DNA of 64,000 nucleotides from Actinomycetota bacterium (GTDB lineage: Bacteria; Actinomycetota; Acidimicrobiia; Acidimicrobiales; JACCXE01): contig JBEHXL010000006.1 of the NCBI GenBank assembly GCA_048498715.1, forward strand, positions 45,272 to 109,271, read 5' to 3'. The position numbers were made by a program, and so were the translations under genes. Positions 10,761 to 36,444 of this stretch are shown here, in pieces (the stretch's first letter is position 1; each line of letters opens with the position of its first letter). The notes under the pieces were generated by a model. That model was not told the origin of the DNA and did not search any database. It saw only the letters and a program-made list of their open reading frames with translations.

Positions 10761-10766
10761 ATTGTC

Positions 10767-14269: not shown

Positions 14270-14318
14270 CTTCAGCGCGCTCGAAGGGATTCGAACCCCT
14301 AACCTTCTGATCCGTAGT
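14270..14318. repeat. proximal att copy within and just 3' of tRNA-Arg
   Basis: Identical to 9557-9605. Covers 6 nt downstream of the tRNA plus its 3' 43 nt, up to the anticodon loop. Confidence 0.9.
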
Positions 14319-14348
14319 CAGATGCTCTATCCGTTGAGCTACGAGCGC
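14276..14348 (-). tRNA. tRNA-Arg (anticodon ACG)
   Basis: Hand-folded 73 nt: GCGCTCG TA GCTC AACGGATA GAGC A TCTGA CTACGGA TCAGA AGGTT AGGGG TTCGAAT CCCTT CGAGCGC G. CCA is not encoded. Confidence 0.9.
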
Positions 14349-14465
14349 TGGAATTGCGGGTCGCCACTGTAGCGGACAGACCCCGGATCCTCCCAAGGCG
14401 ACCGTATAAATCGGACATCACGGTCTATCCACTCAAGGTTCTCCGGCGTGGGCCGATAGGCCGAC

Positions 14466-17455: not shown

Positions 17456-18108
17456 ATCAGCCGGCGATCCGTCGCCCAGCGCGCGAGTTCGTGACGCGAG
17501 CTCAGCTGAAGTTTGCGCAACACCGAACTGACGTGGGTCTCGACGGTCTTCACCGACACGTTGAGGCGCCGCCCGACTTCCTTGTAGGCGTAGCCACGCG
17601 CGATCAGCTGCAGAACCTCGCGTTCGCGGGGCGTGAGCTGTTCGAGCTCGGGATCCGCACTCGGGGCGGTGGCGACGGGCGGCCCCGACGCGAATGCGTC
17701 GAGCACGAAGCCGGCGAGCCGCGGGGAGAACGCGGCGTCGCCCGCGGCGATGCGTTCGATCGCTTCGGCCAACTCGGCGCCCGTCGCCGATTTCGTGATG
17801 TAGCCGCGGGCGCCGGCGCGAATCACGGCGATCACGTCTTCGGGTGCGTCCGAAACCGACAGCGCGAGGAAGCGGAGCGATGGCTTCACGGGCGTGATGC
17901 GACGGAGGATCTCGACGCCGCCACCGCCGGGCATGTGCACATCGAGCAGCACGACGTCGACCGCATCGTCGGCCAGCGCGCCGAGCGCGGCCACCGCGGC
18001 ATCGACGTCACCCGCTTCGCCGACCACGGTGACGGCGTCGCCCAACTCGGTGCGCACTCCGGACCGGACCATCGGGTGGTCGTCGACGATGAACACCTTG
18101 GCCGTCAT
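17452..18108 (-). CDS. NarL/LuxR-family response regulator
   Basis: 218 aa. Receiver VFIVDDHPMVRSG...VLLDVHMPGGGG and HTH LTPREREVLQLIARGYAYKEVGRRLNVSVKTVETH. Confidence 0.9.
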   Translation of the reverse strand: MTAKVFIVDDHPMVRSGVRTELGDAVTVVGEAGDVDAAVAALGALADDAVDVVLLDVHMPGGGGVEILRRITPVKPSLRFLALSVSDAPEDVIAVIRAGARGYITKSATGAELAEAIERIAAGDAAFSPRLAGFVLDAFASGPPVATAPSADPELEQLTPREREVLQLIARGYAYKEVGRRLNVSVKTVETHVSSVLRKLQLSSRHELARWATDRRLI

Positions 18109-19295: not shown

Positions 19296-19343
19296 CGGGA
19301 ACGACCCTGAGACCCAGCCGATACTGGATCAGGGGGATACCCG

Positions 19344-23168: not shown

Positions 23169-23260
23169 TGGCGGAGAGGGGGGGATTTGAACCCCCGGAC
23201 CCAGTTTCCCAGGTCAACTCATTAGCAGTGAGTCCGATTCGGCCGCTCTCGCACCTCTCC
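23169..23260 (-). tRNA. tRNA-Ser (anticodon GCT), CCA encoded
   Basis: The reverse complement reads GGAGAGG...ACTCA CTGCTAA TGAGT...long variable arm...GGGGGTTCAAATCCCCC CCTCTCC G CCA. Confidence 0.85.
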
Positions 23261-23375: not shown

Positions 23376-26300
23376 CTAGCCGAGGAGTGCGAAGCCCGGT
23401 CGGTAGCTGAAGACCGGGGTTGCGTTGGTCGGCGTGACCGGCGGGTTGAAGGTGACGAAGTCGCCACCGATCGCCAGCAGGCCGCTCGAGGTGAGCGACA
23501 TGGTGCGGATCGTCCCGCTCGGGGTCGGCTGCCAGTCGAGCACTTCGCCAGTGTTGGCGTCGATGCCCGACATCGGACCGTAGGCGTTGCCAGCTGTCGT
23601 GGTGTACGTGCCGGCGAGGTACAGGTTGCCGGAGAAGACCACGAGGGCGTTGACCGCGCCGTTGGTGTCGGCCTGCCATGCACTGACGGCGCCGCCGTCG
23701 GAGCCGTTCACCTTGGCGAGGTTGGCGCGGGCGGCACCACCGGCGTTGGCGAACGAACCACCGAGGAAGATGGCGTCAGCGTTGTCAGGATCGACGGCGA
23801 TGATGTTGACCGCGCCGTCCGGGTTCGGCGACCAAGCGGTCGCGTTACCCGAGGTCGTGCTGATGGCTGCGGCGTTCGAACGAAGGTCGCTGCCCACGTT
23901 CGAGAAGGAACCACCGGCGAGGACGTTGGCACCGTCGAGAACAACGCTGTTCACCGTGGCGCCGCTGTTCAGCGCCGGGTTCCACACGGAGGTGTCGCCC
24001 ATCGTGGTGCCGACGGCGGCCAGGCCCGAACGGGTGTCGGCATTGACGCCCGTGAAGGAACCACCGATGTACACACGATTGGCGTCAGCCGCCATGGACT
24101 TGACCGAGCCGCCGGAAACGGTCGGGGTCCACGAGGTGACCGTGCTGTCGGCTTGCTGCACCGCACCGAGACCGGAGCGGGAGACACCGTTCACCTGGCT
24201 GAACAAACCAGCGAGGTAGACGTTGTCGGCATTGGCCGTGATCGCTGCCACAGGACCGTCGGTATCCGCCTTGAAAGACGTCACACCGCTGGCCTGGCTG
24301 ATCTCGGCGACGTTGTGGCGAACCACACCGCCGAGGACCTTGAACGCACCACCGGCGATGAGGCGGGTCGAAGCGTCACGAGCCAACGAGAAGACCTCGT
24401 TGCCGGCGTGCGCCGTGAGCGGCTGCAGTGCGGCCGCCGCCGTGCTCGCCGAAGCGGCGTTCACGTACAGCGCAATGCGGTGACGGGCTTCGCCCTGAGC
24501 GTGGGTGAAGGCACCACCGATGGCGATGTACGACGTCGACGAGGTTGCGGCCGCGCTGATGCTGTTGACGGTGCCGTCGATGCCCGAGGGCACCCAGACG
24601 GTCGAAGGCGAGCTGTTGAGCTGACCAACGGTCGTCGAGTTGGCGCCCGCGTTGGTGAGACCGAAGGCGACGACGTTTTGGACGGCGAGACCGGCCGAGG
24701 ACGTGAACGAGCCACCGAGGAAGACGGTGCCGGGCACGCTCGAGGTTGGCGAGGTGCCGACCGCGATGGTGTTGACCACGCCGTTGGTGTTCGGGTTCCA
24801 TCCGAGAACGCCGCCGGGCGCCGTCGGGCTGAACGCCGCTGCGTTGTTGCGAGCGGTAGGTGCGTCGGCGGCTTTGAAGGCACCGCTGAAGTCACCGCCG
24901 ACGAGAACCGACGTCGGAGCGGTGAGGATGCCAGCACCCACGATGGCGATGGACTTCACCGTCGAACCTGCGACGCCAGCGGTGTAGGCCGGATCGAAGC
25001 CGATCGTCGGCGCCGCCGACGTACCCGCCCAGTTGTAGCGCGCCAGGTGATTCGCAGTGGTGGAGCCGATCTTGGTGAAGTCGCCACCGATGTAGATCTT
25101 CGCCTGCTGCGAAACCGTGCTCGAGATCGTGAAGACGGTGCCGTGGAAGGCAATCGCGTTGACCGCGCCGTTGGGGTCACCTGCCGGGTCGAAGGTGAGC
25201 GCCTTCGACGTGGGATCGACCAGCATGTAGTTCTGGTGACCAGCTGCGGTGAAGAGACCGCCCACGGCGACCTTGTAGTAGGTGGCGGTCGGCGTCAGGA
25301 ACGTCGCGTTCACGACGTTCACGGCGCGAACCTCGCCGCTGATGCCGCCGAGGTTGCAGTAGGTGGCATCGAGCACACCACCAGAGGTGATGTGAGCGAA
25401 GGCGGGGCAGGCGACGCCTTGGACATGCGTGAACGTGCCGCCGATGAAGTACCCGCTCACGAGGTCGGAGGTGATGGCCTTGACCACACCGCCGGTGACA
25501 GCGGCACCGTTGACGACCGAACCCTGGGTTGCGCCGGCGGCCAGCACTTCGGCACCGGCACCGCCCGCCGCAGGACCAGCGGTGTCGAAGGCACCACCGA
25601 GGTAGGTGGTGTCGTGGCCAGTACCGACCACCGAGTTGACGATGCCGTCGACCGCAGGAGCGGGCTGCAGCGCAGGCTTGGCCGGCGTGACAACCGCGGT
25701 CGCGGCGGTCTCGGTCGGCGTCTTCACCGCAGCGTTGGTGTCGTCGAGGTTGTCGTTGGTGCCGATGACAACCGCACGCAGCGTCTTGCCGATGTCGTTG
25801 GCCTTGCTGACCGTGTAGCGGTTCGTGGTTGCACCGGCGATCGGGCTGCAGTTGGCACCCGTCTCGTCGCACTGCTCCCACTGATACAGGAAGGCGGTAG
25901 CCGTGCCGGCCTGCCACGTGCCGTCAGTCACCTTGAGCTTGTCGCCCGTGAACGGCGAGCCGGGGATGGCGGCCGTCGTGGTGCAAGCGGTGTTGAGGCA
26001 GCGGACGATCGTGCCGACAACAGTGTTGACTGGCGCCGGCTGAATGCGGCTTTGCGCACTCGTAGCGGCCGTCGAACCCACGTGGTTCGTGGCCGTGACG
26101 ACGACCTGGATGGTCGAGTCGAGGTCGGCCGGGGCCACGGGGGTGTAGGTGGAGTTCGTTGCGTCTGGAATGTCGGCGCAGCTGAGACCCGAGGCGTCAC
26201 ACTTCTGCCACTGGTAGGTCAGAGCACCACTGACGCCCTGGCTCCAGTCCGTCGAACGGGAGCTGTGGGCGGTCAACGTGTGACCGGTACCGGCGACGCC

Positions 26301-28538
26301 GGTGATGGTCGGCAGCACCGTGTTCACAGGGGCAACCGTCTGGTCGGCAATCACGGGGGTTGCGGGCGACGGCGCGGACGTGAGTGAGCCGTCGGCGTTC
26401 ATGCCCTTCACCGTCACGCGGAAGGTGGAGCCGATGTCATCCGGGTAGACGGGGAGATACGTCTTGCTGGTGGCACCGGCCACCGGGTTGCAGAGGATGC
26501 CGGTGTCGGTGCACTTGGACCACTGGTAATACAGCGTCGGCGAGTTCGCCACGGTGGGCGTGTCGGCGACGGGGTTCCACGTGCTGTTCGCAAGAAGCGG
26601 CGATTCGACGACCGGCTCGCCGGTGATCGTCGGACCGCTGACGATCGCCGCGGTGATCGGGCAGACCACCGGGCTCAGCGCCGTCGAGGAACCAAGGGTG
26701 AAGGTTGCACCCGACGGACAGACGGCGGTGCCGTTCTTCGTGTCGGGGATAAGCGTCGAACCCGACAGGTGATAGCTGGCGTCGCGGCCGTTGGCTTTGG
26801 AGCCGGCGACGAAGGTTGCCGCCGGGATGCCGGTCACGGCCGAGGCGTAGCCGACGCAGCCGGTGATCGGCTGATCACCCGTATCGACCCACACCTTGCC
26901 AGGGGCGCTCGCCGTAGCGGGCGTGTTGCTCATGATCAGCTTGGTGCCGATGATGTGCACGTCGGCGGCACGGCTAGCGCAGGTCGAGGTCGGGCCGACG
27001 AGCGAGGTGGCCGAGTTGTCGAATTGCACCGGGACGTTGGAGGTGAACTTCAACGAGCCAGTGTCGGTGGATGCGTGCGGCGAGTTCGAGCAGGTGCTCT
27101 TGGTGCTGCTGGCGCAGTAGGCCAGCGACGTGGGCGCCGGCACCGCCTTGGCACTGACGGTCTGGAGGCCGCCAAGCACGGAGTAGATCTGGCGGTAGAG
27201 GTCGCCGCGGCCCGAGCCCGTGTAGGTCAGGTTCTCGTTGGCCGCCGACGGGCCACCCGGGGTCGTGACATGGATCTCATTGGGCTCGTTGTCGTACCGG
27301 TGGAACTGAGCCGCAGTGCCGCAGCTGATGAGGCACAGTTCCTGCGTGAGCTTCGGCGTGGCGGCCGGCTCGGTGAGCGGCATCACGGTCGGAAGCGCGG
27401 GAAGCTGGGCCGTGGCCTGGACCGGCGGCAGCGTCAGCGTCGTGCCGCGATGCACCGCAACGGCGGTGTCGAACTTGGATAGCGCCGACGCGTAGGTCGT
27501 CGTGGCCGAGTAGGACACCGGCGCCGTCGACTGCGAATTGTCCGCCGCCGTCGGGTCCGTGTCGAAGAATGGCTGCCTTGTCGTGTCGTAGCCGACCGTC
27601 AGCAGACCGAGCACCATCGGGGCTTCGATCTTGAGCGGCAGCACCGCCTTCGCCAGCGGCATCTTTGTGATCGTCTGCTTCATGACGACGGCGCCCGACG
27701 GGTCGAGCGCGTAGCCCGCCATCGCGCACACGTCGAAGGTGCCGGAGTTGTCGACGTCGATCGGCGTCGGCAGGTTGATGAGACCCGGCATTTGCTTGGT
27801 GACCGTGGTGCCGTCGGGCTTCTGGTACGTCGTGGTCCAGTTGAACTGGAGCAACGTCAGCAGCGCGGGCACAGCAGCGGTGTTCGCGTTGTTGCTGAGG
27901 ATGGCGATGAGGTCGCCGTAGACCGTGTTGTAGACGTTCTTGATCAGCGTGTCGGTGCGGGCATCGGTCTGCTCGATGAGCGGCGACGCGGCCTTGTACA
28001 CGCGCGAAAGATCGACGCCGAGACCGGGAACGAACGACGTCGGCACCGCGGTGAGCGCACACACGGGCGACAGCACGTTCTGGGCGATCTGGAGGCCCGA
28101 GGTCAACGCGGTCGAGAGGCCGAGGCTGAGAACCTGGGCTTCGATCGCGGACACCGCGGCCATCACGTCAGCCTGGGCGCCGGTCGGATCGACGGCCAGG
28201 ATGTCGGCCTGGACTGCGGCGATGCTCGCCTGCAGCGCTGCGACCTGGTCCTGCACGTTCGGAGTCGCAGTACCCGTGATCGTCGCGCCGAGGCCGTTGA
28301 CGGCGCCCACGATCTGGCCGACCGCGGAGGTCGTCTGGTTGAGTCCGCCCGACACGTTCGTGACGCCCAGCACGCCACCGGCGTCCTTGACCGGTGTCAG
28401 TGTCGGTGTCGTCGGAAGTGACGGAAGTGCTCGAGCGACGCCGGAGCTGGCGAGAAAGCTCGCTCCGGTACATACGGCGAGCAACGAAAGCAGAAGCCGG
28501 ACGCGTAAGCGCGTTCGACCAAGGCTCTTTGGTGCCAT
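23376..28538 (-). CDS. 1720-aa secreted surface protein: novel N-terminal region, three Cys-pair Ig-like repeats, many-bladed beta-propeller (DUF5122/delta-60-like repeats)
   Basis: Signal peptide MAPKSLGRTRLRVRLLLSLLAVCTGASFLASSGVARA. Repeats YQWSKCTDTGILC / YQWQKCDASGLSC / YQWEQCDETGANC. About 14 recurrences of GG.F..V.G..R..LA. Confidence 0.8.
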   Translation of the reverse strand: MAPKSLGRTRLRVRLLLSLLAVCTGASFLASSGVARALPSLPTTPTLTPVKDAGGVLGVTNVSGGLNQTTSAVGQIVGAVNGLGATITGTATPNVQDQVAALQASIAAVQADILAVDPTGAQADVMAAVSAIEAQVLSLGLSTALTSGLQIAQNVLSPVCALTAVPTSFVPGLGVDLSRVYKAASPLIEQTDARTDTLIKNVYNTVYGDLIAILSNNANTAAVPALLTLLQFNWTTTYQKPDGTTVTKQMPGLINLPTPIDVDNSGTFDVCAMAGYALDPSGAVVMKQTITKMPLAKAVLPLKIEAPMVLGLLTVGYDTTRQPFFDTDPTAADNSQSTAPVSYSATTTYASALSKFDTAVAVHRGTTLTLPPVQATAQLPALPTVMPLTEPAATPKLTQELCLISCGTAAQFHRYDNEPNEIHVTTPGGPSAANENLTYTGSGRGDLYRQIYSVLGGLQTVSAKAVPAPTSLAYCASSTKSTCSNSPHASTDTGSLKFTSNVPVQFDNSATSLVGPTSTCASRAADVHIIGTKLIMSNTPATASAPGKVWVDTGDQPITGCVGYASAVTGIPAATFVAGSKANGRDASYHLSGSTLIPDTKNGTAVCPSGATFTLGSSTALSPVVCPITAAIVSGPTITGEPVVESPLLANSTWNPVADTPTVANSPTLYYQWSKCTDTGILCNPVAGATSKTYLPVYPDDIGSTFRVTVKGMNADGSLTSAPSPATPVIADQTVAPVNTVLPTITGVAGTGHTLTAHSSRSTDWSQGVSGALTYQWQKCDASGLSCADIPDATNSTYTPVAPADLDSTIQVVVTATNHVGSTAATSAQSRIQPAPVNTVVGTIVRCLNTACTTTAAIPGSPFTGDKLKVTDGTWQAGTATAFLYQWEQCDETGANCSPIAGATTNRYTVSKANDIGKTLRAVVIGTNDNLDDTNAAVKTPTETAATAVVTPAKPALQPAPAVDGIVNSVVGTGHDTTYLGGAFDTAGPAAGGAGAEVLAAGATQGSVVNGAAVTGGVVKAITSDLVSGYFIGGTFTHVQGVACPAFAHITSGGVLDATYCNLGGISGEVRAVNVVNATFLTPTATYYKVAVGGLFTAAGHQNYMLVDPTSKALTFDPAGDPNGAVNAIAFHGTVFTISSTVSQQAKIYIGGDFTKIGSTTANHLARYNWAGTSAAPTIGFDPAYTAGVAGSTVKSIAIVGAGILTAPTSVLVGGDFSGAFKAADAPTARNNAAAFSPTAPGGVLGWNPNTNGVVNTIAVGTSPTSSVPGTVFLGGSFTSSAGLAVQNVVAFGLTNAGANSTTVGQLNSSPSTVWVPSGIDGTVNSISAAATSSTSYIAIGGAFTHAQGEARHRIALYVNAASASTAAAALQPLTAHAGNEVFSLARDASTRLIAGGAFKVLGGVVRHNVAEISQASGVTSFKADTDGPVAAITANADNVYLAGLFSQVNGVSRSGLGAVQQADSTVTSWTPTVSGGSVKSMAADANRVYIGGSFTGVNADTRSGLAAVGTTMGDTSVWNPALNSGATVNSVVLDGANVLAGGSFSNVGSDLRSNAAAISTTSGNATAWSPNPDGAVNIIAVDPDNADAIFLGGSFANAGGAARANLAKVNGSDGGAVSAWQADTNGAVNALVVFSGNLYLAGTYTTTAGNAYGPMSGIDANTGEVLDWQPTPSGTIRTMSLTSSGLLAIGGDFVTFNPPVTPTNATPVFSYRPGFALLG

Positions 28539-28716
28539 TGGTTGTCCCCTTTTTCAGCGCAGACGGCGAGCGTCTGTCGAGGGGTGGAACGAGAACTTTC
28601 GGCGTTCCTTACGGTGCCTTTGCAGGAACAGTCGACAAACTTCCGGGCAGATCGGCCTTACGTAGCCAAATTGGACAGGGACTAAAGGCCCTAGGCAGAC
28701 GCGCCGATGGGGGGAG

Positions 28717-29274
28717 GTGAAGAAGACGCATGTTCGGGGGATGATCACGGTCGGAGCCGTACTCGCGGTATCCGCCGGGTTGCTCAGCCCTGCGCGTGCG
28801 GCGACGTCGGGCGACACCACGACGACGTTCACGCTGACCGCCGGTTCGCTCGCCATCACAGCACCTGCGTCATCTGACCTCGGCTCCGTTGCGACCGGCA
28901 GCGCGACCACGTCGGCACAACTCGGCGCCGTGCAGGTGTCGGACGGACGTGGCGCCTTGCTCGGCACGTGGACCGGCTCCGTGTCGTCGACGGACTTCAC
29001 GACCGGAGGCGGTACCGCCAACGAGAAGATCACCAAGTCGTCGATCGACTACTGGTCCGGTGCCGCGACCGCGAGCAGCGGCGTCGGTGTGTTCACGCCG
29101 GGACAACTCACATCGTTACTGAAGGTCACACTGAGCACCGGGCGGACCGCCTTTGCCGCTGCCTCGGTCGTCGGCAACAACTCGGTCACGTGGAACCCCA
29201 CGGTCGTCGTCAACGTGCCGTCGGCGGCGGTCGCCGGTGGGTACACCGGCACCATCACGCACTCGATCGCGTAG
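28717..29274 (+). CDS. secreted WxL-like surface protein, paralogue 1
   Basis: GTG start as given by the ORF track (start uncertain). Signal peptide ...AVLAVSAGLLSPARA. TFTLTAGSLAITAP..DLGS, YWSG, and C-terminal WNPTVVVNVPSAAVAGGYTGTITHSIA. Confidence 0.65.
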   Translation: MKKTHVRGMITVGAVLAVSAGLLSPARAATSGDTTTTFTLTAGSLAITAPASSDLGSVATGSATTSAQLGAVQVSDGRGALLGTWTGSVSSTDFTTGGGTANEKITKSSIDYWSGAATASSGVGVFTPGQLTSLLKVTLSTGRTAFAAASVVGNNSVTWNPTVVVNVPSAAVAGGYTGTITHSIA

Positions 29275-29299
29275 GCGTATCTGCCAATCTGGCCACTCG

Positions 29300-29797
29300 A
29301 TGGCCAAGCGAGCTGGGTTCGTCCTCGTTGTCGCGGTTGGATGTCTTGTGTTCGCGTCGCCCGCATACGCGGCCTTGTCGATCAGCGTGCCCGGCTCGGC
29401 CAACCTGGGCTCGGCGTCTCCCGGTGCGACCTCGATCACCGGCCAGCTCGGACTCGTGACCGTCAACGCATCGGGTCTCGTCGCGCCGAATTTCACCTCG
29501 ACGGTTTCCACGACCACGTTCACGACCGGAGCCGGCGGAACGAACGAGACGATCGCGAAGTCAGCCGTCTCGTACTGGTCCGGTCCGGCGACGGTCGCCG
29601 TCGGAACGCTGTCGACGACACCCGGTCAGGTGAACGCCGCCGCCGCGCAATCACTGTCGATCACGCGTACGTCCTTCAGCGCGGTGGGTCTGCTGCTTAC
29701 GATCCAAGTAGCGTGGAACCCGACCCTGATCATCACGCTGCCGGCGAACGCCGTGGCGGGCACCTACACCGGCACGATCACCCACTCGGCCGCATGA
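29300..29797 (+). CDS. secreted WxL-like surface protein, paralogue 2
   Basis: ATG 29300. Signal MAKRAGFVLVVAVGCLVFASPAYA. Colinear with paralogue 1 (LSISVPGSANLGS, YWSG, WNPTLIITLPANAVAGTYTGTITHSAA). Confidence 0.65.
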   Translation: MAKRAGFVLVVAVGCLVFASPAYAALSISVPGSANLGSASPGATSITGQLGLVTVNASGLVAPNFTSTVSTTTFTTGAGGTNETIAKSAVSYWSGPATVAVGTLSTTPGQVNAAAAQSLSITRTSFSAVGLLLTIQVAWNPTLIITLPANAVAGTYTGTITHSAA

Positions 29798-30759
29798 GGA
29801 GCCGACTGATCGCGCTCGTCGCCGTGCTCGCCGTTCTGTTCGGCGTGAGTGGTGTTGCGCACGCGGCGGGGAGCATCGGCATTCGGTTGCTCGACGCCCC
29901 CGTCAACCGCAGCGACGATCCGCGGGCGAAGGTGTACATCGTCGATCACGTGGCGCCGGGCACGACGATTTCTCGTCGCGTGGAAGTGAGTAACGACACC
30001 GACGCCACCCAGCGCATCGAGACCTACGCCGCCGCGGCCAGTGTGAAGGATGGCGCGTTCCGGTTCGGCGACGGCCACGCGAAAAACGAGGTGTCGACGT
30101 GGACGACCGTCGATCCCGGCGAGGCCGACTTCGCGGCCGGTGAGAAGCGGGCGGTCAACGTCACGATCGCGGTTCCCGACAACGCCAGCCAGGGCGAGCG
30201 CTACGAGGTGATTTGGGCTTCGGTCGGCGCCGCCGCACCCGAGGGTGGCGGTATCGCCGAGGTCAATCGCGTCGGCGTCCGCGTCTACTTGTCCGTCGGC
30301 CCGGGCGGTGAGCCGCCGTCGGACTTCGACATCACGCAACTGACGGCTCGTCGCCGCGACGGCGTACCTGAGGTCACCGCACGCGTGAAGAACACCGGCG
30401 GGCGTGCCCTGGACCTCACGGGCAGGCTCACGCTGAGCGACGGACCGGGCGGGCTGCGGGCGGGACCGTTCCCCGCGAGCCTCGGCACGACTCTCGGGAT
30501 CGACGGAACCGACACAGTGACCGTCACGCTCGACAAGGCCATCCCGGCCGGCCCATGGAAGGCCAAACTCACCCTGCAGTCCGGTCTGACGACGCGCAGC
30601 GCGACGGCGAAGCTGACCTTCCCCGCGTCGGGAGCCTCGAGCGCCGAACCCGAGGACGGTCCCAATCTCGTCGTGCGCGTCGGCCCCGTCGTCGGAATCG
30701 CAGGCTTGCTGGGACTCGTCGTGTTCGTCCGGCGGCGACGACGCGGAGACGATCACTAG
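29794..30759 (+). CDS. DUF916-like cell-surface protein with C-terminal membrane anchor
   Basis: ATGA overlap with the previous gene. Signal MRSRLIALVAVLAVLFGVSGVAHA. YIVDHVAPGTTISRRVEVSNDTD. C-terminal helix GIAGLLGLVVFV followed by RRRRRGDDH. Confidence 0.6.
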   Translation: MRSRLIALVAVLAVLFGVSGVAHAAGSIGIRLLDAPVNRSDDPRAKVYIVDHVAPGTTISRRVEVSNDTDATQRIETYAAAASVKDGAFRFGDGHAKNEVSTWTTVDPGEADFAAGEKRAVNVTIAVPDNASQGERYEVIWASVGAAAPEGGGIAEVNRVGVRVYLSVGPGGEPPSDFDITQLTARRRDGVPEVTARVKNTGGRALDLTGRLTLSDGPGGLRAGPFPASLGTTLGIDGTDTVTVTLDKAIPAGPWKAKLTLQSGLTTRSATAKLTFPASGASSAEPEDGPNLVVRVGPVVGIAGLLGLVVFVRRRRRGDDH

Positions 30760-30772
30760 CGTCGCTGGCCTG

Positions 30773-33160
30773 ATGAGCACGACGAGCCGCTACCTGCACG
30801 ACGGCTGGATCTTCCAGCAGACCGACGCCACCCCCATCCCGAACAGCAAGGCCGACTCGTGGCTGCCTGCGATCGTGCCGGGCCAGGTTCACCTCGACCT
30901 CCAGCGCAACGGGGTGATCCCGAACCCGTTCGACGGTATGAACGAGCGCGGCGTGCAGTGGGTCGACGACGCGTCGTGGGCGTACTGGAACAAATTCGAG
31001 GTGAGCGACGAAGAACTTGCGGACGCGCGCCACGTCCTCGTCTTCGAAGGCCTCGACACGATCGCCACCGTGCTGCTCAACAACAAAGAGATCGGCGCGA
31101 CCGACAACATGTTCATCGCGCACGAGTTCGATGTGACCGAAGCGCTCAAGGCCGGGGCGAACACCCTCGAGGTGCGGTTCGCTTCGGCGGATGCGACGGG
31201 CGAGGCCCGCAAGGCGGGGGCCGACGAAGAGTTCAGCCGCGTGCCGGCCCGCTCGTTCGTTCGCAAGGCGCAATACATGTGGGGCTGGGACTGGGGTCCC
31301 CGTCTGCGCGGCTGTGGCATCTGGAGGCCCGTACGACTCGTGCGCGTTCCAAACGCCCGCGTGACCGACTGGTCGTGGCGTTCGACGTTCGACGGCGCGA
31401 GCGCGACTGTCGCCGTCGAAGTCGATGTCGAGGGCAACGCACGCGAAGTGAGCGTCGCGATCGTCGGCAACGGCGCCGAGGTGTCGACCCGTGCCGCCGT
31501 CGTGAACGGCGTCGCGACCGCGTCACTCACGATCGACAACGCCGAGCGCTGGTGGTGCGTCGGCCAAGGCGAGCCCACCCTCTACGACCTGACGATCGCG
31601 CTCGACGACGAGGACGTCGTCGACGCTCGCATCGGCTTGCGCGAGATCGAACTCGTGCAAGAGCCCGACGACGCCGGCAAGTCCTTCTTCTTCCGCATCA
31701 ACGGCGTCCCGATCTTCGCCAAAGGTGCCAACTGGATTCCCGACGACTCGTTCCCGTCCCGCACGACGAGCGATCGAGTGCGAGCGGTGTTGCAGCGTGC
31801 CGTCGACTGCGGCATGAACATGATTCGCATCTGGGGTGGCGGGCTCTACGAGTCCGAAGAGTTCTACGACGCGTGCGACGAACTCGGGCTGCTCGTGTGG
31901 CAGGACTTCCCCTTCGCGTGCGCGCTCTATCCCGACGACGATGCGACGGTCGCCGCTCTTGTGCCCGAGTTCACCGCGGCCGTGAAGCGCATCCGCAATC
32001 ACGCGTCTCTCGCGCTGTGGTGCGGCAACAACGAAAACCAGTGGCTCGGCGCGATGGGCGCGTTCGGCGGTGGCCCGCGTCTCTTGGGCGACCGCTTGTA
32101 CGACGACGTGCTTCCTTCGGTCGTCGCCGAACACGACCCGGGCCGCGACTATTGGCCGGGCTCGCCCTGGGGTTCCGACTTCCCCGGTGGCGACCACGAC
32201 GGCGACGCGCACTACTGGAACGTGTGGCACGGCGAGGGCGACTGGGTGCATTACGTGAAGTGCACGTCGCGCTTCGTCAGCGAATTCGGCTTCGCCGCAC
32301 CGCCCGACGAGCGCACGTTGCGCGCGGCGATCGCCCCCGAACATCTCGGTGTCGACACGCCCGTCATGCGCTGGCACGACAAGACGAATAAGGGTTACGA
32401 CACGTACCTCGGCTACATCGCGCTGCACTATCCGATGCCGGCGACGCTCGAGGAGCTCGTCTACTACGGCCAGCTCAATCAGGCCGACGGCATGCGCTTC
32501 GGCATCGAGCACTTTCGTCGCCTGCGCCCGCACACGATGGGCACACTCGTGTGGCAGCTCAACGACTGCTGGCCCGTCCAGAGCTGGGCATGGGTCGACT
32601 ACAACCTGCGACCGAAGGCGGCCTGGTATGCGGCGAAGAAGTTCTACGCGCCGCTGCTGCTCAGCCTCTTCCGCGAGGGCGACGCCGTCGGCGTGCACCT
32701 CGTCAACGACGCCGTCGACGGTCGCACCGGGACGGTCGCGATGCGGGTGATCGATCTCGACGGCACCGTGCTGTTCGAGTGGTCCCAAGACGCCAAGGTC
32801 GACGGGCTCGGCAGCACGCGTGTTGCGACGGTCGAGCTTCCGGCCGACGTGCTCGCCGCGTCGACGCACGCGCTCGTCCACGCCACGTTCGACGACGTCG
32901 AGGCGTCGCTGCTGCTCGCCGAGCCGAAGGATCTGGCGCTCACGGCGTCGCGCATCACCGCGACGGTCGCCGGCGACAAGGTGACGCTGTCGACCGACCG
33001 CCTGGCGCTGTCCGTCATGGTCTGGCTCGACGGCGTCGACGCGACGTGGAGCGACAACTTCTTCCACCTGCTCCCCGGCGAACCGAAGACCATCGCGGTG
33101 TCCGAAGTCGACCTCACCCCCAGCGAACTGTCATCCCGCCTGCGCTGGCGCACCCTCTAA
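30773..33160 (+). CDS. glycoside hydrolase family 2, beta-mannosidase-like
   Basis: 795 aa. LHDGWIFQQ start, NMIRIWGGGLYE, WQDFPFACALYP and ALWCGNNEN motifs typical of GH2 beta-mannosidases. No signal peptide. Lies 13 nt after the upstream stop. Confidence 0.8.
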   Translation: MSTTSRYLHDGWIFQQTDATPIPNSKADSWLPAIVPGQVHLDLQRNGVIPNPFDGMNERGVQWVDDASWAYWNKFEVSDEELADARHVLVFEGLDTIATVLLNNKEIGATDNMFIAHEFDVTEALKAGANTLEVRFASADATGEARKAGADEEFSRVPARSFVRKAQYMWGWDWGPRLRGCGIWRPVRLVRVPNARVTDWSWRSTFDGASATVAVEVDVEGNAREVSVAIVGNGAEVSTRAAVVNGVATASLTIDNAERWWCVGQGEPTLYDLTIALDDEDVVDARIGLREIELVQEPDDAGKSFFFRINGVPIFAKGANWIPDDSFPSRTTSDRVRAVLQRAVDCGMNMIRIWGGGLYESEEFYDACDELGLLVWQDFPFACALYPDDDATVAALVPEFTAAVKRIRNHASLALWCGNNENQWLGAMGAFGGGPRLLGDRLYDDVLPSVVAEHDPGRDYWPGSPWGSDFPGGDHDGDAHYWNVWHGEGDWVHYVKCTSRFVSEFGFAAPPDERTLRAAIAPEHLGVDTPVMRWHDKTNKGYDTYLGYIALHYPMPATLEELVYYGQLNQADGMRFGIEHFRRLRPHTMGTLVWQLNDCWPVQSWAWVDYNLRPKAAWYAAKKFYAPLLLSLFREGDAVGVHLVNDAVDGRTGTVAMRVIDLDGTVLFEWSQDAKVDGLGSTRVATVELPADVLAASTHALVHATFDDVEASLLLAEPKDLALTASRITATVAGDKVTLSTDRLALSVMVWLDGVDATWSDNFFHLLPGEPKTIAVSEVDLTPSELSSRLRWRTL

Positions 33161-33188: not shown

Positions 33189-33278
33189 TGGCGGAGCGGG
33201 AGGGATTCGAACCCCCGGTCCCTTTCGAGACGCTCGCTTTCAAGGCGAGTGCAATCAACCGAGCTCTGCCACCGCTCC
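33189..33278 (-). tRNA. tRNA-Ser (anticodon TGA), CCA encoded
   Basis: The reverse complement reads GGAGCGG...CTCGC CTTGAAA GCGAG...long variable arm...GGGGGTTCGAATCCCTC CCGCTCC G CCA. Confidence 0.85.
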
Positions 33279-33295: not shown

Positions 33296-34240
33296 TTACC
33301 GACTGATGTGGTCGCGCAGAGAACGAGCCCACTCGTCGGCCGAGCGCCACGAGGCTTCGGCATCGCGGCGGATGGCCGGGCCGTGCTCGCCCGCCGCCGG
33401 ATACGACCCGAGGAACTTGAGCGACGCGAGCGACGCGTGCAGGTCGCGCAAGCAGTCGAACACGACCTCGTCGTCGACATGGCCCTCGAAGTCGATGATG
33501 AAGCAGTAGTTGCCGAGCCCCGACTTGGTCGGGCGGCTCTCGAGCTTGGACAGGTTGATGTTGCGAGCAGTGAACTGCCCCAAAATCCCGTGCAACGATC
33601 CAGGCACGTCTGCCCGCTGAAAACAGACGATCGACGTCTTGTCGTGACCGGTCGGGGCCGGGATCACGTTCGGCCGCACCAGCACGAACCGCGTCTTGTT
33701 CTCCGGGTGGTCCTCGATGTCGGCGGCCGCGATCTCGAGCCCGTAATACGACGCCGCGACCGCCGGACCGACCGCCGCGTCGCGCACCGTCTCGCCCGCC
33801 TTCATGCGCTCACCGATGATGCGCGCCGCGTCGGCCGTCGAGTTCGTCGCAGAGAACTCGGCCTGGGGCACGTTCTTCACCAGCCAGTCGCGGCACTGCG
33901 CATGCGCGACGGGCAGCGTCAGCACGTGCTCGATCTCGTCGAGGGCCAAACCGGGCGGCACCATCAAGTTCATGACGATGCGTCGCTCGACCTCGCGCTG
34001 AATGAACAGGTCGTGGTCGAAGATCAACGCGTCGAGCGTCAGGTTGACCGTGCCCTCGATCGCGTTCTCGATCGGCACGAACGCCGCGTCGACTTCGCCG
34101 CGCTCGACCGCCGCGAGCGCCTCGGTCATGACGCCGTAGAGGACGAGCTCGCACGAGGCGAGGTCGGCCTCACCCAGCAATGCCTCCTCCGTGAAGGTGG
34201 CGTGGGGTCCCAGATAGCCGATGCGGCGAAGGTCAGTCAT
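33296..34240 (-). CDS. pheA: prephenate dehydratase
   Basis: 314 aa. IGYLGPHATFTEEA, TRFVLV, and an ACT region with NLSKLESRPTK. Confidence 0.9.
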   Translation of the reverse strand: MTDLRRIGYLGPHATFTEEALLGEADLASCELVLYGVMTEALAAVERGEVDAAFVPIENAIEGTVNLTLDALIFDHDLFIQREVERRIVMNLMVPPGLALDEIEHVLTLPVAHAQCRDWLVKNVPQAEFSATNSTADAARIIGERMKAGETVRDAAVGPAVAASYYGLEIAAADIEDHPENKTRFVLVRPNVIPAPTGHDKTSIVCFQRADVPGSLHGILGQFTARNINLSKLESRPTKSGLGNYCFIIDFEGHVDDEVVFDCLRDLHASLASLKFLGSYPAAGEHGPAIRRDAEASWRSADEWARSLRDHISR

Positions 34241-35228
34241 GGATGGTCAGCAGGCTCGTGATGGTGTTGTCCGTTGTCGAGGTCTCGCCGGCGACCGGCC
34301 CGATGGTGACGGTCAGCGTGGCATCGCCCGAGGGGCTCTTCAGGCCCCGGAACGAGAGCGCTTGGCGCTTGCCGGGGCTGAGGTCGACGAAGTCGCGGGC
34401 AACGTCGGGCAGTCCGCCCGATGCCGGCTGCAGCGCCGCGGTCACCGTGACGTGCTTCTGCGCGACGTTGCCAATGTTTGCGACCACGACCTCCAGTCGA
34501 ACCGATCCCGTCTTCGGCAACAACAGCTTTTCGCCGTCCTTGCCCACCGCAGCCGGCTGGGTCTGCACCAGGACAGTGGCGACATCGACGATCGGCGCGA
34601 CCGACGAGTTCGCCTTGAGGATGTTGACGAACGCTGTGAGCTCGGGCGCTTCCCACTCCGTCGGTTCCTTCACCCACACCGACGGTGCGACCGCTTCCTT
34701 GGCCCCCTTCGCCAGCGTCGTGGCGACGAGATCGGTGAACGCCTTGTAGGTCTGGTCGGCGGCGATGAGGTTGCGCGCGCTCACGACGAGCCGGCCGACG
34801 ACCTCGCTCGGCGACTTGGCCGAGAGCGCGTCGATCATGTCCTGGGCGACGGAGCGGGCGCCGATCACGCGCAGCTGGAGAGTGGCGACGAGCAGGCTCT
34901 GCGCTTCCTGCGCGGCGGGAGGCGCGTCGATGTGCTTCAGCGCCTCGAGGGTGGTCTTGGTCTGCTTGACCACCTGGTCGAGCCGGGCGCGGGTGCCGGG
35001 CCGGCCCAGGTCGCTGGCGTTCTCACGAATCGCCGCGAGGTCGGCGCCCTGCTCCGAGGAGTCGGTGATGAGCGGGCGCACCTCGTCGAGATAACTCATC
35101 TGCTCGAGCTTCTTGTCGCGGCCACTGCCGTTGGCGATCGCGTTGATGCCCAACGCCATCAGGCTGAGAACGGTCGCGAAAACGAGAACCCGGGCGCGAC
35201 GTTGCCGCGCTGTGAGTCGACGGGCCAT
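34233..35228 (-). CDS. hypothetical N-terminally anchored extracytoplasmic protein
   Basis: 331 aa. RRARVLVFATVLSLMALGINAI anchor, a helical middle region and a beta-rich C-terminus. 8-nt overlap with pheA. Confidence 0.6.
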   Translation of the reverse strand: MARRLTARQRRARVLVFATVLSLMALGINAIANGSGRDKKLEQMSYLDEVRPLITDSSEQGADLAAIRENASDLGRPGTRARLDQVVKQTKTTLEALKHIDAPPAAQEAQSLLVATLQLRVIGARSVAQDMIDALSAKSPSEVVGRLVVSARNLIAADQTYKAFTDLVATTLAKGAKEAVAPSVWVKEPTEWEAPELTAFVNILKANSSVAPIVDVATVLVQTQPAAVGKDGEKLLLPKTGSVRLEVVVANIGNVAQKHVTVTAALQPASGGLPDVARDFVDLSPGKRQALSFRGLKSPSGDATLTVTIGPVAGETSTTDNTITSLLTIHD

Positions 35229-35700: not shown

Positions 35701-36444
35701 TCAGCTTAGGAGGTGCGCCTCCGCCGGTAACTGCTGCTGCTCGCTCTGCGGCGCAGGTGCCTTTTTCTTTACGGCAGCTTTCTTGGGTGCCGCGCCGTTG
35801 GCGTTCGCAGCAGCCTTCTTGGCAACGGGTGGCTTCTTCTCGGCCGGAGCCTCGGCCTTCTTTTCCGCCGGAGCTTCGGCCTTCTTTTCCGCCGGAGCCG
35901 CCGCCTTCTTCGAAGCGGGCTGCTGCTTCTTGGCCTGGGCCGGCTTCGGCTCGGTCTTCGACGGCGCCGCCTTGGGAACGGACTCGGCCTTCGGCGCGTC
36001 GGCGGGCTTTGGCGCATCGGTCGCCTTCGCCTCCGGCTGCTGGGGGCGCGCCGGCTTGGCTTGCTGATGGATGCCGGCCTTTGCCAGGACGTCGGCGTCG
36101 ACGCCCACCTGGCGCCAGGCCGAATATGTGATGTCGTGGCGGTCGCCGTACGAACGCGCGACGCGAATGAAGGCCTTCTCGAGATCGGTGAAATCGCCGC
36201 CGCCGCTCTGCTGCAGCCGCAGCTGCTCGGCGTGGAGGTCGATGCGCTCCTGGGTCAGATGCAGGCGCTGGACCGGATCGGCCGACAGCAACAACGTGTC
36301 GATCTGATGCATGCGGTGTTGGACCGATTCGACCGTCCGGGCCGCCGTACGTCCCGGCTTCCGCACGTCGAGCGCCGAGAGATACCGCCGAACGATGCGG
36401 GCCCGATCGTGGGAGCCGCCCTTCTCCTGAACTTCCGAAGCCAT
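35701..36444 (-). CDS. hypothetical protein with Lys/Ala/Pro-rich histone-H1-like C-terminal tail
   Basis: 247 aa. Globular ~125-aa N-terminal domain, then AKPARPQQPEAKATDAPKPADAPK...AEKKAEAPAEKKAEAPAEKK...KKAAVKKKAP. Confidence 0.7.
   Translation of the reverse strand: MASEVQEKGGSHDRARIVRRYLSALDVRKPGRTAARTVESVQHRMHQIDTLLLSADPVQRLHLTQERIDLHAEQLRLQQSGGGDFTDLEKAFIRVARSYGDRHDITYSAWRQVGVDADVLAKAGIHQQAKPARPQQPEAKATDAPKPADAPKAESVPKAAPSKTEPKPAQAKKQQPASKKAAAPAEKKAEAPAEKKAEAPAEKKPPVAKKAAANANGAAPKKAAVKKKAPAPQSEQQQLPAEAHLLS
35830..35901. repeat. three tandem 24-bp units inside the H1-like tail
   Basis: Units at 35830, 35854 and 35878. Units 2 and 3 match 22/24, unit 1 matches 19/24. They encode the (A/P)EKKAEAP repeats. 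Confidence 0.8.

What the first reader, a model, noticed from the sequence alone, without database searches (positions are those of the whole stretch)
28717..33160. Actinobacterial WxL/DUF916-like surface-complex operon co-transcribed with a cytoplasmic GH2 beta-mannosidase
Four co-directional genes are separated by 25 nt, a 4-nt ATGA overlap, and 13 nt. Genes 1 and 2 are colinear paralogues: a signal peptide, then LxIxxP..xLGS, YWSG, and C-terminal WNPT..(V/L)P..AVAG.YTGTITHS. Gene 3 has a signal peptide, a beta-rich body and a C-terminal helix plus RRRRR stop-transfer. This composition mirrors the WxL/DUF916 (csc-type) cell-surface clusters described in Firmicutes, which are proposed to act on plant polysaccharides. 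Here the set is fused transcriptionally to a GH2 enzyme that lacks any signal peptide. It also faces a giant secreted protein across a 178-nt divergent region. I do not know of a characterised actinobacterial version.
Basis: inference. Interest (0 to 1): 0.7.

Follow-up and report, generated by a model that had tools for sequence, protein, structure and literature searches.

The report
Divergent WxL surface-protein module in an actinobacterium
Three small genes in this soil-type actinobacterium (class Acidimicrobiia) encode a very divergent copy of the WxL/WxLIP cell-surface protein set known from lactobacilli and enterococci; the set proves widespread in Actinomycetota, and the mannosidase gene next to it is only a recent neighbour.

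Summary
There are four co-directional genes with gaps of 25 nt, a 4-nt ATGA overlap and 13 nt. Genes 1 and 2 are paralogues, and a 178-nt divergent region separates gene 1 from a 1720-aa secreted protein.

The WxL/DUF916 guess holds for genes 1-3.
- Gene 3 hits PF06030 (WxLIP_PGBD, formerly DUF916) just below threshold, and 20 of 39 relatives hit it.
- The gene 3 AlphaFold model (pLDDT 87) has two beta-sandwiches and a TM helix. Its best PDB matches are the solved E. faecium WxLIP structures.
- Genes 1 and 2 miss Pfam WxL themselves. A 57%-identical relative passes the WxL gathering score. WxL is also the commonest weak hit across 98 diverse family members.
- The distal motif is YxGT(I/V)THS(V/I)A, with His in place of the canonical Trp.

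The small gene and the gene-3 type are near-obligate neighbours: 72 of 80 genome loci, and 57 of 58 metagenome loci with enough upstream sequence. Many actinomycetes add a large lectin, propeller or fn3 protein that ends in the same domain.

The GH2 beta-mannosidase link is not conserved. It is absent from 160 other loci and from syntenic relatives, where gene 3 abuts tRNA-Ser/pheA.

Verdict: a new variant of a known kind, of moderate interest.

The parts
28539..28716 (.). 178-nt divergent intergenic region between the giant secreted protein gene and gene 1. It presumably holds the promoter(s).
   Evidence: Coordinates. No sigma-70 consensus match was found, which says little for a 66% GC actinobacterium.
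28717..29274 (+). Gene 1: small secreted WxL-like protein, type A. It is 185 aa, the signal peptide is cleaved after ARA28, and the mature protein is about 157 aa with pI 5.5. Its proximal motif D76-G-R-G-A-L-L-G-T-W85-T-G lies at nt 28942-28977. Its distal motif Y176-T-G-T-I-T-H182-S-I-A185 lies at nt 29242-29271.
   Evidence: It is 57% identical over its full length (BLASTP 3e-64) to P0397, which passes Pfam WxL at 31.2 bits against GA 25. The family profile finds 1357 clusters. The AF2 model is an all-beta sandwich with pLDDT 74. The GTG start at 28717 is favoured because relatives conserve the basic K/R n-region.
29300..29797 (+). Gene 2: small secreted WxL-like protein, type B. It is 165 aa, and the mature protein is about 141 aa with pI 8.6. 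It lacks the first beta-strand (TTTFTLT) and the DxRG...W proximal motif, but keeps the distal YTGTITHSAA.
   Evidence: 43% identical to gene 1. The order type A, then type B, then gene 3 is conserved in Acidimicrobiia relatives L082, L001, L012, L021 and L011.
29794..30759 (+). Gene 3: WxLIP-like (DUF916-type) type-I membrane protein. It has a signal peptide (residues 1-24), beta-sandwich 1 (residues 28-168, nt 29875-30297), beta-sandwich 2 (residues 178-284, nt 30325-30645), a TM helix at about residues 293-312 and an R313-R317 stop-transfer.
   Evidence: PF06030 at E 2.5e-4 and 21.5 bits against GA 27.3. 20 of 39 relatives hit PF06030, best 6.8e-8. AF2 pLDDT is 87. The top three Foldseek matches are 9i25_C and 9i1y WxLIP at E 3e-10.
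30773..33160 (+). GH2 beta-mannosidase without a signal peptide. It is a local operon neighbour, 13 nt after gene 3, and is not part of the conserved module.
   Evidence: Pfam GH2 and mannosidase Ig domains. PDB beta-mannosidases match at E 1e-160 to 1e-143. It is present only in the 91%-identical sister contig L081 and absent from L082, L001, L002 and 160 other loci.
23376..28538 (-). Giant secreted protein of 1720 aa with a signal peptide, Cys-containing Ig-like repeats and C-terminal beta-propeller repeats. It is divergent from gene 1 and has no WxL-like C-terminal domain.
   Evidence: Translation. Pfam Rax2 and DUF5122 propeller hits. The g1/g2 profile finds nothing in it, and a homologue is adjacent only in L002, L081 and L082.
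33189..33278 (-). tRNA-Ser(TGA), the conserved downstream boundary. In relatives that lack GH2 it directly follows gene 3.
23169..23260 (-). tRNA-Ser(GCT), the other boundary of the variable block that holds the giant gene, genes 1-3 and GH2.
   Evidence: In L002 this tRNA lies between the giant gene and gene 1 instead.

Best explanation
Genes 1-3 form a self-contained WxL/WxLIP-type module for non-covalent display of proteins on the cell surface.

Gene 3 is exported by Sec. It stays tethered in the membrane by its C-terminal helix, with the RRRRR tail inside the cell, and projects two Ig-like beta-sandwiches into the wall. Genes 1 and 2 are secreted single-domain proteins made only of a divergent WxL-type domain. 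By analogy with the enterococcal WxLIP-WxL complex, they dock onto the first sandwich of gene 3 by beta-strand augmentation and/or bind the peptidoglycan. Together they would form a wall-associated platform.

In many other Actinomycetota the same pair is joined by a large protein whose lectin, propeller, fn3 or adhesin modules end in the same domain. The general job of the domain is therefore to anchor binding modules to the wall without sortase. In this Acidimicrobiia lineage only the two small subunits and the tether are present.

The GH2 beta-mannosidase downstream is cytoplasmic and was inserted recently between gene 3 and tRNA-Ser. It may be co-transcribed here, but it is not a functional part of the module.

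Shown: the homology, the architecture, the co-occurrence, the small/large domain logic and the non-conservation of GH2. Inferred: the physical complex, wall binding and the display role.
For: Gene 3 is WxLIP-like:
- PF06030 at 21.5 bits.
- 20 of 39 relatives hit PF06030, best 6.8e-8.
- Sources name relatives as DUF916 or 'WxL interacting protein'.
- The AF2 model has two beta-sandwiches plus a TM helix, pLDDT 87.
- The Foldseek top three are solved E. faecium WxLIP entries, including the complex with a long WxL protein (9i25), at E 3e-10 over 263 columns.

Genes 1 and 2 are WxL-like:
- PF13731 is the most frequent Pfam family among 98 diverse members (14 hits).
- The alignments are colinear, with protein 59-177 matching profile 81-207 of 214.
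- P0397, 57% identical to gene 1, passes the gathering score.
- UniRef names P0404 and P0435 as WxL.
- The distal motif Y-x-x-x-[IV]-T-H-S-[VI] matches the published YXXX(L/I/V)TWXL (PMC5817068) except for W to H.
- The proximal DxRG..W matches the published Asp/Arg/turn/Trp arrangement (PMC9772566).

The domain occurs alone or at the extreme C-terminus of large multidomain proteins, as WxL does.

Co-occurrence: 72 of 80 genome loci have a gene-3 type gene at the small gene, in most directly downstream of it. 57 of 58 metagenome loci with at least 600 nt upstream have the small gene directly upstream on the same strand.

The cluster definition of Hassan et al. 2023 (at least one WxLIP and at least two WxL within four genes) is met in architecture.
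Against: - Genes 1 and 2 give no Pfam WxL hit themselves even at E<=1.
- Neither literal Trp-x-Leu motif is present.
- The family profile and P0397 find no solved WxL chain by sequence.
- The gene 1 model (pLDDT 74) did not retrieve the WxL chain of 9i25 among its top 50 PDB matches.
- PF11797 (DUF3324) is not detected in gene 3 or its relatives.
- No large WxL-type partner is encoded in this window.
- No complex prediction or binding data are available, so docking and wall binding rest on analogy.
Confidence: 0.7

Rival explanations
1. The three surface proteins and the GH2 beta-mannosidase form one functional polysaccharide (mannan) utilisation operon, a csc-type complex that captures plant glycans for the enzyme.
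For: Only 13 nt separate gene 3 from GH2, and no terminator-like site lies between them. The arrangement is kept in the 91%-identical sister contig L081. Siezen et al. 2006 proposed carbohydrate roles for csc clusters (PMC1534035, abstract).
Against: GH2 is absent from all 80 genome loci and all 80 metagenome loci. It is also absent from syntenic relatives L082 and L001, where gene 3 abuts tRNA-Ser(TGA)-pheA. GH2 has no signal peptide or hydrophobic segment, so it cannot meet the surface proteins. No transporter or extracellular mannanase lies nearby.
Confidence: 0.07
2. The module is a donor-strand, pilus-like assembly system. Gene 3 acts like a membrane-tethered chaperone-usher-type chaperone with two Ig-like domains. 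Genes 1 and 2 are pilin-like subunits that polymerise by strand complementation, with type B (which lacks the first strand) as a cap or tip.
For: After WxLIP, the next best structural matches of the gene 3 model are the periplasmic pilus chaperones CsuC, FimC, CfaA, Caf1M and PapD, at E 1e-7 to 1e-6. The gene 1 model weakly matches the CsuA/B, CFA/I and type 1 pilins, at E 7e-3 to 0.2 and TM 0.35-0.55. Gene 2 gives a weak NCBIfam Mfa1 fimbrial hit at E 0.005. AlphaFold predicts a DUF916 strand inserted into WxL (PMC10599100). Large proteins carry adhesin modules in front of the domain, like two-domain tip adhesins.
Against: The matches are weak, with TM below 0.5. Tandem Ig-like proteins of many kinds, such as RbmA and ciliary proteins, score alike. 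No usher, sortase or SipW-type partner is present. The first strand of gene 1 is also kept inside large proteins, where profile matches start at position 17-21, so it looks like an integral strand rather than a donor extension. No fibre evidence exists for any WxL system.
Confidence: 0.1
3. The similarity to WxL/WxLIP is only convergent, generic Ig-like beta-sandwich resemblance. The three genes are an unrelated actinobacterial envelope module of unknown role.
For: All Pfam hits of the window's own proteins are below the curated thresholds. Both literal WxL motifs are absent. Sequence searches against solved structures find nothing.
Against: Two independent families point to the two partner families of one known system, and they keep the same gene adjacency, the same small-versus-large C-terminal domain logic and the same TM tether. 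A 57%-identical relative passes the curated WxL threshold with a colinear alignment that ends exactly at the distal motif.
Confidence: 0.08

Closest known systems
WxL gene clusters of Lactobacillales and Bacillales (small WxL + large WxL + WxLIP), e.g. E. faecium loci A-C (SwpA/LwpA/DufA) and the E. faecalis elr operon. Sources: Hassan & Williamson 2022 (PMC9772566); Hassan et al. 2023 (PMC10599100); PDB 9i25 and 9i1y.
   Same: - Secreted proteins that consist only of the domain, next to a signal-peptide protein with two Ig-like domains and a TM helix.
- The domain is always at the extreme C-terminus.
- Both small and large forms exist.
- At least two WxL-type genes and one WxLIP-type gene are adjacent.
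- The proximal Asp/Arg/turn/Trp and distal Y-x-x-x-[ILV]-T-[W/H]-x-[LVI] signatures are present.
- The best structural match of gene 3 is WxLIP.
   Different: - The phylum is Actinomycetota, here a free-living-type Acidimicrobiia lineage, not a gut Firmicute.
- The distal Trp is an invariant His, and the protein ends two residues later without the xxxP tail.
- The proximal WxL reads W-T-(G/A).
- The mature small proteins are shorter (141-157 aa against about 180-230).
- The alignment covers only positions 81-207 of the 214-position Pfam model.
- The second WxLIP domain is not recognisable as DUF3324 by sequence.
- This window has no LPxTG partner and no large WxL protein.
csc clusters of Lactiplantibacillus plantarum (cscA = DUF916, cscB/cscC = WxL, cscD = LPxTG). 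Source: Siezen et al. 2006, PMC1534035.
   Same: A co-directional, tightly spaced operon of small secreted proteins plus a DUF916-type membrane protein.
   Different: There is no CscD-type LPxTG protein. The proposed carbohydrate link is not supported here, because the GH2 neighbour is not conserved.
Chaperone-usher pilus chaperones and pilins (FimC/FimA, CsuC/CsuA-B, Caf1M/Caf1)
   Same: Gene 3 has the two-Ig-domain shape, and gene 1 shows a weak pilin-like fold. Strand insertion is the likely binding mode.
   Different: No usher is present, and the cell is monoderm. The chaperone-like protein is membrane-anchored. Structural scores are weak and there is no sequence similarity.

Membership tests
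WxL domain (Pfam PF13731 / IPR027994) | The score reaches Pfam's gathering threshold of 25 bits. | tested here: not met
   Genes 1 and 2 give no PF13731 hit at E<=1. Relatives do: P0397 (57% identical to gene 1) scores 31.2 bits, P0262 scores 21.6 bits, and 14 of 98 family members hit at E<=10. Membership therefore holds by transitive homology and not directly.
WxL domain (Pfam PF13731 / IPR027994) | Two Trp-x-Leu motifs, with the distal one as YXXX(L/I/V)TWXLXXXP (PMC5817068, PMC9772566). | tested here: not met
   The proximal motif is D-G-R-G-A-L-L-G-T-W85-T-G (Trp kept, Leu lost), and it is absent in gene 2. The distal motif is Y176-T-G-T-I-T-H182-S-I-A-COOH. The His is near-invariant in the family alignments.
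WxL domain (Pfam PF13731 / IPR027994) | The domain lies at the extreme C-terminus of secreted proteins, in small (domain-only) and large (multidomain) forms. | tested here: met
   The domain ends at the last residue in nearly all of the 150 representatives. Large forms of 400-1630 aa carry RCC1, FG-GAP, Laminin_G_3, fn3, He_PIG, ricin, DUF11 or pAdhesive_15 modules.
WxL domain (Pfam PF13731 / IPR027994) | Non-covalent binding to peptidoglycan. | not testable with these tools
   This needs a sacculus-binding assay.
WxL cluster as defined by Hassan et al. 2023 | [quoted passage not shown] | tested here: met
   Genes 1, 2 and 3 are contiguous. The pairing recurs in 72 of 80 and 57 of 58 loci. This holds provided the divergent proteins are accepted as WxL and WxLIP homologues.
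WxLIP (DUF916 + DUF3324 + TM helix) | An N-terminal PGBD domain that matches PF06030 at its gathering score of 27.3 bits. | tested here: inconclusive
   Gene 3 scores 21.5 bits at E 2.5e-4, with residues 52-135 matching profile 22-112 of 121. 20 of 39 close relatives hit at E<=0.01, best 6.8e-8. P0012 carries a precomputed PF06030 hit.
WxLIP (DUF916 + DUF3324 + TM helix) | A second domain that matches PF11797 (DUF3324 / HBD). | tested here: not met
   There is no PF11797 hit in gene 3 at E<=1 or in 39 relatives at E<=0.01. A second beta-sandwich of the right size (residues 178-284) is present in the model, and the Foldseek alignment to WxLIP spans both domains.
WxLIP (DUF916 + DUF3324 + TM helix) | A signal peptide and a single C-terminal transmembrane helix. 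| tested here: met
   Hydropathy and the AF2 helix at residues 296-317. RRRRR follows the helix.
WxLIP (DUF916 + DUF3324 + TM helix) | The fold matches solved WxLIP. | tested here: met
   9i25_C, 9i1y_A and 9i1y_B rank 1-3 of 1740 matches, at E 3e-10 and probability 1.00. The global TM-score is only 0.37-0.46, probably because the two domains sit at a different angle.
WxLIP (DUF916 + DUF3324 + TM helix) | Physical binding to the cognate WxL proteins. | not testable with these tools
csc cluster (Siezen 2006) | A CscD-type LPxTG protein in the cluster. | tested here: not met
   No LPxTG-like motif occurs in genes 1-3, GH2 or the giant protein.
GH2 beta-mannosidase (gene 4) | The GH2 domain set with mannosidase Ig domains, and full-length similarity to solved beta-mannosidases. 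| tested here: met
   PF22666, PF00703, PF17786 and PF17753 hit. 5n6u matches at E 1e-160 and BtMan2A (2vjx) at E 3e-150.

The most novel reading that the evidence does not exclude
The His-type WxL-like domain and its WxLIP-like tether may be the main sortase-independent wall-anchoring system of Actinomycetota, adapted to actinobacterial wall chemistry. The pair may work by chaperone-like beta-strand complementation, and possibly assembles small subunits into an oligomeric or fibre-like platform. The module occurs in free-living soil lineages. If this is true, the host-binding role given to WxLIP in Firmicutes would be a secondary specialisation of an ancient, general Gram-positive surface-display machine.
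Probability: 0.2. Interest if true: 0.75.

Novelty: new variant of a known kind. Interest (0 to 1): 0.45.

Why it matters
WxL/WxLIP clusters are described in the literature as almost confined to Lactobacillales and Bacillales, and are interpreted as adhesion and virulence devices facing a host (PMC9772566, PMC10599100).

This work shows a large and mostly unannotated sister clade in Actinomycetota.
- The family profile finds 1357 clusters at 50% identity.
- 446 stretches matching two strict motif patterns in the species-representative genome collection encode a relative.
- The genera include Micromonospora, Kitasatospora, Streptomyces, Frankia, Herbidospora and Lentzea, together with Acidimicrobiia MAGs.

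The clade keeps the same three-part logic, but an invariant His replaces the name-giving distal Trp. This has four consequences.
1. It gives a function-level annotation to thousands of 'hypothetical' small secreted proteins.
2. It identifies a candidate non-covalent wall anchor for surface display in industrial actinomycetes.
3. It argues that the system is not host-specific.
4. It offers natural sequence variation (W against H) to test what the buried WxL platform does.

It also corrects a tempting misreading. The neighbouring mannosidase is a recent insertion next to a tRNA gene and is not part of the system.

Tried and rejected
1. Direct Pfam and NCBIfam scans of genes 1 and 2 gave no WxL hit. 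Only scanning 98 diverse family members revealed the link.
2. Profiles A1, A2 and A3 and the single protein P0397 were searched against PDB sequences, in the hope of reaching the solved WxLIP and WxL chains. No relevant hit came up. The only hit was a 12-bit match of the C-terminal strands to the GH123 N-domain.
3. I composed a synthetic WxL-like peptide from memory of the motifs to fish the WxL chain of 9i25 out of the PDB sequence set. It gave no hit, so hhalign against genuine Firmicute WxL sequences could not be run.
4. Foldseek of the gene 1 model against PDB gave only weak matches to the GH123 N-domain, chaperone-usher pilins and archaeal cannulae (E>=5e-3, TM<=0.55). The WxL chain of 9i25 was not in the top 50.
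5. I tested whether the giant protein is the 'large WxL' partner and rejected the idea. The family profile finds no domain in it, and its C-terminus is a beta-propeller.
6. I rejected GH2 as part of the module on synteny.
7. Supplementary files of PMC9772566 hold no sequences.
8. Promoter and terminator consensus scans were uninformative.
9. Rfam found only the three tRNAs.
10. TasA/camelysin, alternate-signal (SipW) and Mfa1 fimbrial families gave no supporting NCBIfam hit beyond one weak Mfa1 match.

Full report
**Observation**

The window is 66% GC. The reading frames at 28717-33160 are exactly as described.
- Gene 1 runs 28717-29274. It starts with GTG. An in-frame ATG at 28741 gives the 177-aa product on record, P0121.
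- A 25-nt gap follows.
- Gene 2 runs 29300-29797.
- An ATGA stop/start overlap links it to gene 3.
- Gene 3 runs 29794-30759.
- A 13-nt gap follows.
- A 795-aa GH2 gene runs 30773-33160.
- On the other strand, a 1720-aa ORF (23376-28538) starts 178 nt from gene 1.

Genes 1 and 2 are 43% identical and colinear.

Hydropathy shows N-terminal signal segments in genes 1-3 and in the giant protein. Gene 3 has one C-terminal hydrophobic segment followed by RRRRR. GH2 has none. No LPxTG motif occurs anywhere.

GH2 is a beta-mannosidase by its domain set and by full-length similarity to solved enzymes: 5n6u at E 1e-160 and BtMan2A at E 3e-150.

**Gene 3**

- Pfam gives a single sub-threshold hit to PF06030. 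This family is WxLIP_PGBD, the former DUF916. The score is 21.5 bits against a gathering score of 27.3, at E 2.5e-4.
- Among 39 relatives of 52-73% identity, almost all from Acidimicrobiales or Actinomycetota metagenome bins, 20 hit PF06030 at E<=0.01, best 6.8e-8.
- Some sources already call relatives 'DUF916 domain-containing protein' or 'WxL interacting protein'.
- The AlphaFold2 model (pLDDT 87) has two beta-sandwiches (residues 28-168 and 178-284) and a terminal helix. This is the PGBD-HBD-TMH plan described for WxLIP (PMC10599100).
- In a Foldseek search of the PDB, ranks 1-3 are 9i25_C ('WxLIP from Enterococcus faecium locus A bound to long WxL') and 9i1y (WxLIP). E is 3e-10 and the alignment spans both domains.
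- The next matches are RbmA and the two-domain pilus chaperones CsuC, FimC, CfaA, Caf1M and PapD.
- PF11797 (DUF3324) is not detected by sequence.

**Genes 1 and 2**

Neither protein hits Pfam WxL. A profile of the family run against 1.84 billion representative proteins finds 1357 clusters at E<=1e-3.

In these, the domain either makes up the whole mature protein (about 180 aa precursors) or sits at the very C-terminus of large proteins of 400-1630 aa. Those large proteins carry RCC1 or FG-GAP propellers, Laminin_G_3, ricin lectin, fn3, He_PIG, DUF11/DUF7927 or pAdhesive_15 modules. This is the small/large logic that defines WxL proteins (PMC9772566).

I then scanned 98 diverse members against Pfam at a lax threshold. 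PF13731 (WxL) was the family hit by most members: 14 hits, best E 2.4e-4. The alignments are colinear. For example, P0275 residues 65-176 match profile positions 90-207 of 214.

A search seeded with the best of these (P0262) returned three useful proteins.
- P0397 is 57% identical to gene 1 over its whole length (BLASTP 3e-64). It passes the curated WxL threshold at 31.2 bits, with residues 59-177 matching profile 81-207.
- P0404 (Micromonospora fluostatini) is named a WxL protein by UniRef.
- P0435 (Parafrankia irregularis) is also named a WxL protein by UniRef.

The motif correspondence is precise.
- The published distal motif YXXX(L/I/V)TWXLXXXP (PMC5817068) reads Y-T-G-T-I-T-H-S-I-A-COOH here. 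The His is nearly invariant in the family.
- The published proximal arrangement is Asp at W-8, Arg at W-6, a Gly-rich turn, then Trp. Here it reads D-G-R-G-A-L-L-G-T-W-T-G in gene 1.
- Gene 2, and about half of the family, lack this proximal motif. Gene 2 also lacks the first beta-strand.

The gene 1 model is weaker (pLDDT 74). Its PDB matches are weak: the GH123 N-domain and chaperone-usher pilins. Sequence searches did not reach the solved WxL chain.

**Co-occurrence**

A scan of one genome per species found 446 stretches that encode a relative of gene 1/2. They come from Herbidospora, Micromonospora, Plantactinospora, Kitasatospora, Streptomyces, Streptacidiphilus, Frankia, Streptosporangium, Lentzea, Acrocarpospora and many Acidimicrobiia or Actinomycetota MAGs.

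In 72 of the 80 loci kept, a gene-3 type gene lies at the small gene, in most cases immediately after it and often overlapping it. At least four of the eight exceptions (L027, L037, L040, L052) hold less than 4.5 kb beyond the small gene. Many loci add a large protein that ends in the same domain, for example an ORF of about 1007 aa next to the pair in Micromonospora.

In the reverse direction, a metagenome scan seeded with gene 3 gave 80 loci. Of the 58 with at least 600 nt upstream, 57 have the small gene directly upstream on the same strand. The remaining locus has it on the opposite strand.

Some genomes carry expanded arrays. Lentzea locus L051 has two tethers, five small copies and one large protein.

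**What is not part of the module**

GH2 occurs in none of the 160 loci. Among close relatives that share the flanking genes, the picture is as follows.

| Locus | Identity of gene 3 to the window | After gene 3 |
|---|---|---|
| L081 | 91% | GH2, as in the window |
| L082 | 74% | tRNA-Ser(TGA), then pheA; no GH2 |
| L001 | 63% | tRNA-Ser(TGA), then pheA; no GH2 |
| L002 | 64% | about 6 kb of other DNA, then tRNA-Ser(TGA) and pheA; no GH2 |

The shared flanks are PspC and the PAS kinase upstream, and tRNA-Ser(TGA), pheA, a 331-aa ORF and a cNMP-binding protein downstream (L082 holds both sides; L081, L001 and L002 hold the downstream side, L002 also PspC).

The giant protein is adjacent only in L081, L082 and L002. 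In L002 it sits on the other side of tRNA-Ser(GCT). The family profile finds no WxL-like domain in it.

The whole block 23376-33160 lies between two tRNA-Ser genes and looks like a variable region. GH2 may well be co-transcribed here, given the 13-nt gap and the absence of a terminator-like site. That is a local accident and not a conserved coupling, and the enzyme is cytoplasmic.

**Mechanism**

Shown:
- homology of both partners to the two partner families of the WxL system;
- a Sec signal on all three proteins;
- a type-I membrane anchor on gene 3;
- obligate adjacency of the two gene types;
- use of the domain as the C-terminal end of large binding proteins elsewhere.

Inferred by analogy with Galloway-Pena 2015 (as cited), PMC10599100 and PDB 9i25:
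- Gene 3 holds genes 1 and 2 at the wall by strand insertion from its first domain.
- The WxL-like domains contact peptidoglycan.
- Together they give a non-covalent display platform.

In this lineage only two small subunits are present, an acidic type A (pI 5.5) and a basic type B (pI 8.6). The platform may therefore serve another, unlinked partner, or it may have a structural role of its own.

The rivals are listed with their tests: a mannan-utilisation operon, a donor-strand pilus-like assembly, and convergence.

**Comparison and novelty**

The module works like a WxL cluster and is homologous to one. The window's own proteins nevertheless fail the literal family criteria: the Pfam thresholds, the two Trp-x-Leu motifs and DUF3324.

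The literature I could search places WxL almost entirely in Lactobacillales and Bacillales. No paper describes an actinobacterial cluster. One paper merely notes DUF916 genes near Ang-2/HupE genes in Actinomycetota (PMC12537917). Public databases already tag a few members.

I therefore rate it a new variant of a known kind. It is a large His-type WxL clade with its tether, spread through Actinomycetota including free-living lineages. This argues against a purely host-directed role. Interest is moderate (0.45). The GH2 part of the finding is ordinary.

Noticed in passing
window 23169-23260, 33189-33278 and 14275-14348: The block that holds the giant gene, genes 1-3 and GH2 lies between tRNA-Ser(GCT) and tRNA-Ser(TGA), with tRNA-Arg(ACG) further upstream. 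Its content differs between relatives. GH2 is present only in the sister contig. The giant gene lies on either side of tRNA-Ser(GCT). About 6 kb of other DNA sits there in L002. This is a variable region next to tRNA genes.
   Followed up: partly
window 17452-20762: An envelope-stress-type set is present: a LuxR-type response regulator (17452-18108, minus strand), a PspC-domain histidine kinase (18105-19295, minus strand) and a divergent PspC/LiaF-C domain protein (19344-20762, plus strand). PspC is conserved next to the module in L082 and L002.
   Followed up: no
window 20763-23108 (minus strand): A hybrid sensor kinase of 781 aa carries multiple PAS domains, HisKA, HATPase and a receiver domain. 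It lies just beyond tRNA-Ser(GCT) and is conserved in L082.
   Followed up: no
window 23376-28538 (minus strand): The giant secreted protein holds several Cys-containing repeats of the form 'Y(Y/L)(Q/Y)W(S/Q/E)(K/Q)C...C' at about residues 640-960. After them come DUF5122/Rax2-type beta-propeller repeats running to the C-terminus. No anchor motif was found. It has the same kinds of module (Ig repeats plus propeller) as the large WxL-like proteins of other actinomycetes, but it lacks their C-terminal domain.
   Followed up: partly
window 10001-13600: GC content dips locally to 0.60 and the GC-skew sign changes near 12 kb. A 941-aa ORF lies at 10767-13592 (minus strand). It did not pass my third-position GC filter as printed.
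   Followed up: no
L051 (Lentzea sp.) 9812-19788; L053 9860-14646; L145 and L149: Some genomes carry tandem expansions of the module. L051 has two tethers, five small WxL-like genes and a 1569-aa Laminin_G_3/DUF2341 protein that ends in the domain. L053 has a run of WxL-like ORFs and fragments before one tether.
   Followed up: partly
gene 1 residues about 150-182 (window 29165-29262): The last two strands of the family (...WNPT..V.VP..AVAG.YTGT(I/V)T) recur weakly in the N-terminal beta-sandwich of GH123 glycosidases. The evidence is PF22680 hits in 10 of 98 members, the match to PDB 5l7v 'wisVnIPqgtkAGkYtGTvt', and the top Foldseek hits. This is probably a shared strand-turn-strand motif of Ig-like sandwiches and not specific homology.
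   Followed up: partly
window 34233-35228, 35701-36444, 36972-38363: Three conserved ORFs have no Pfam family. The 331-aa one overlaps the pheA start and is kept next to pheA in L081, L082, L001 and L002.
   Followed up: no
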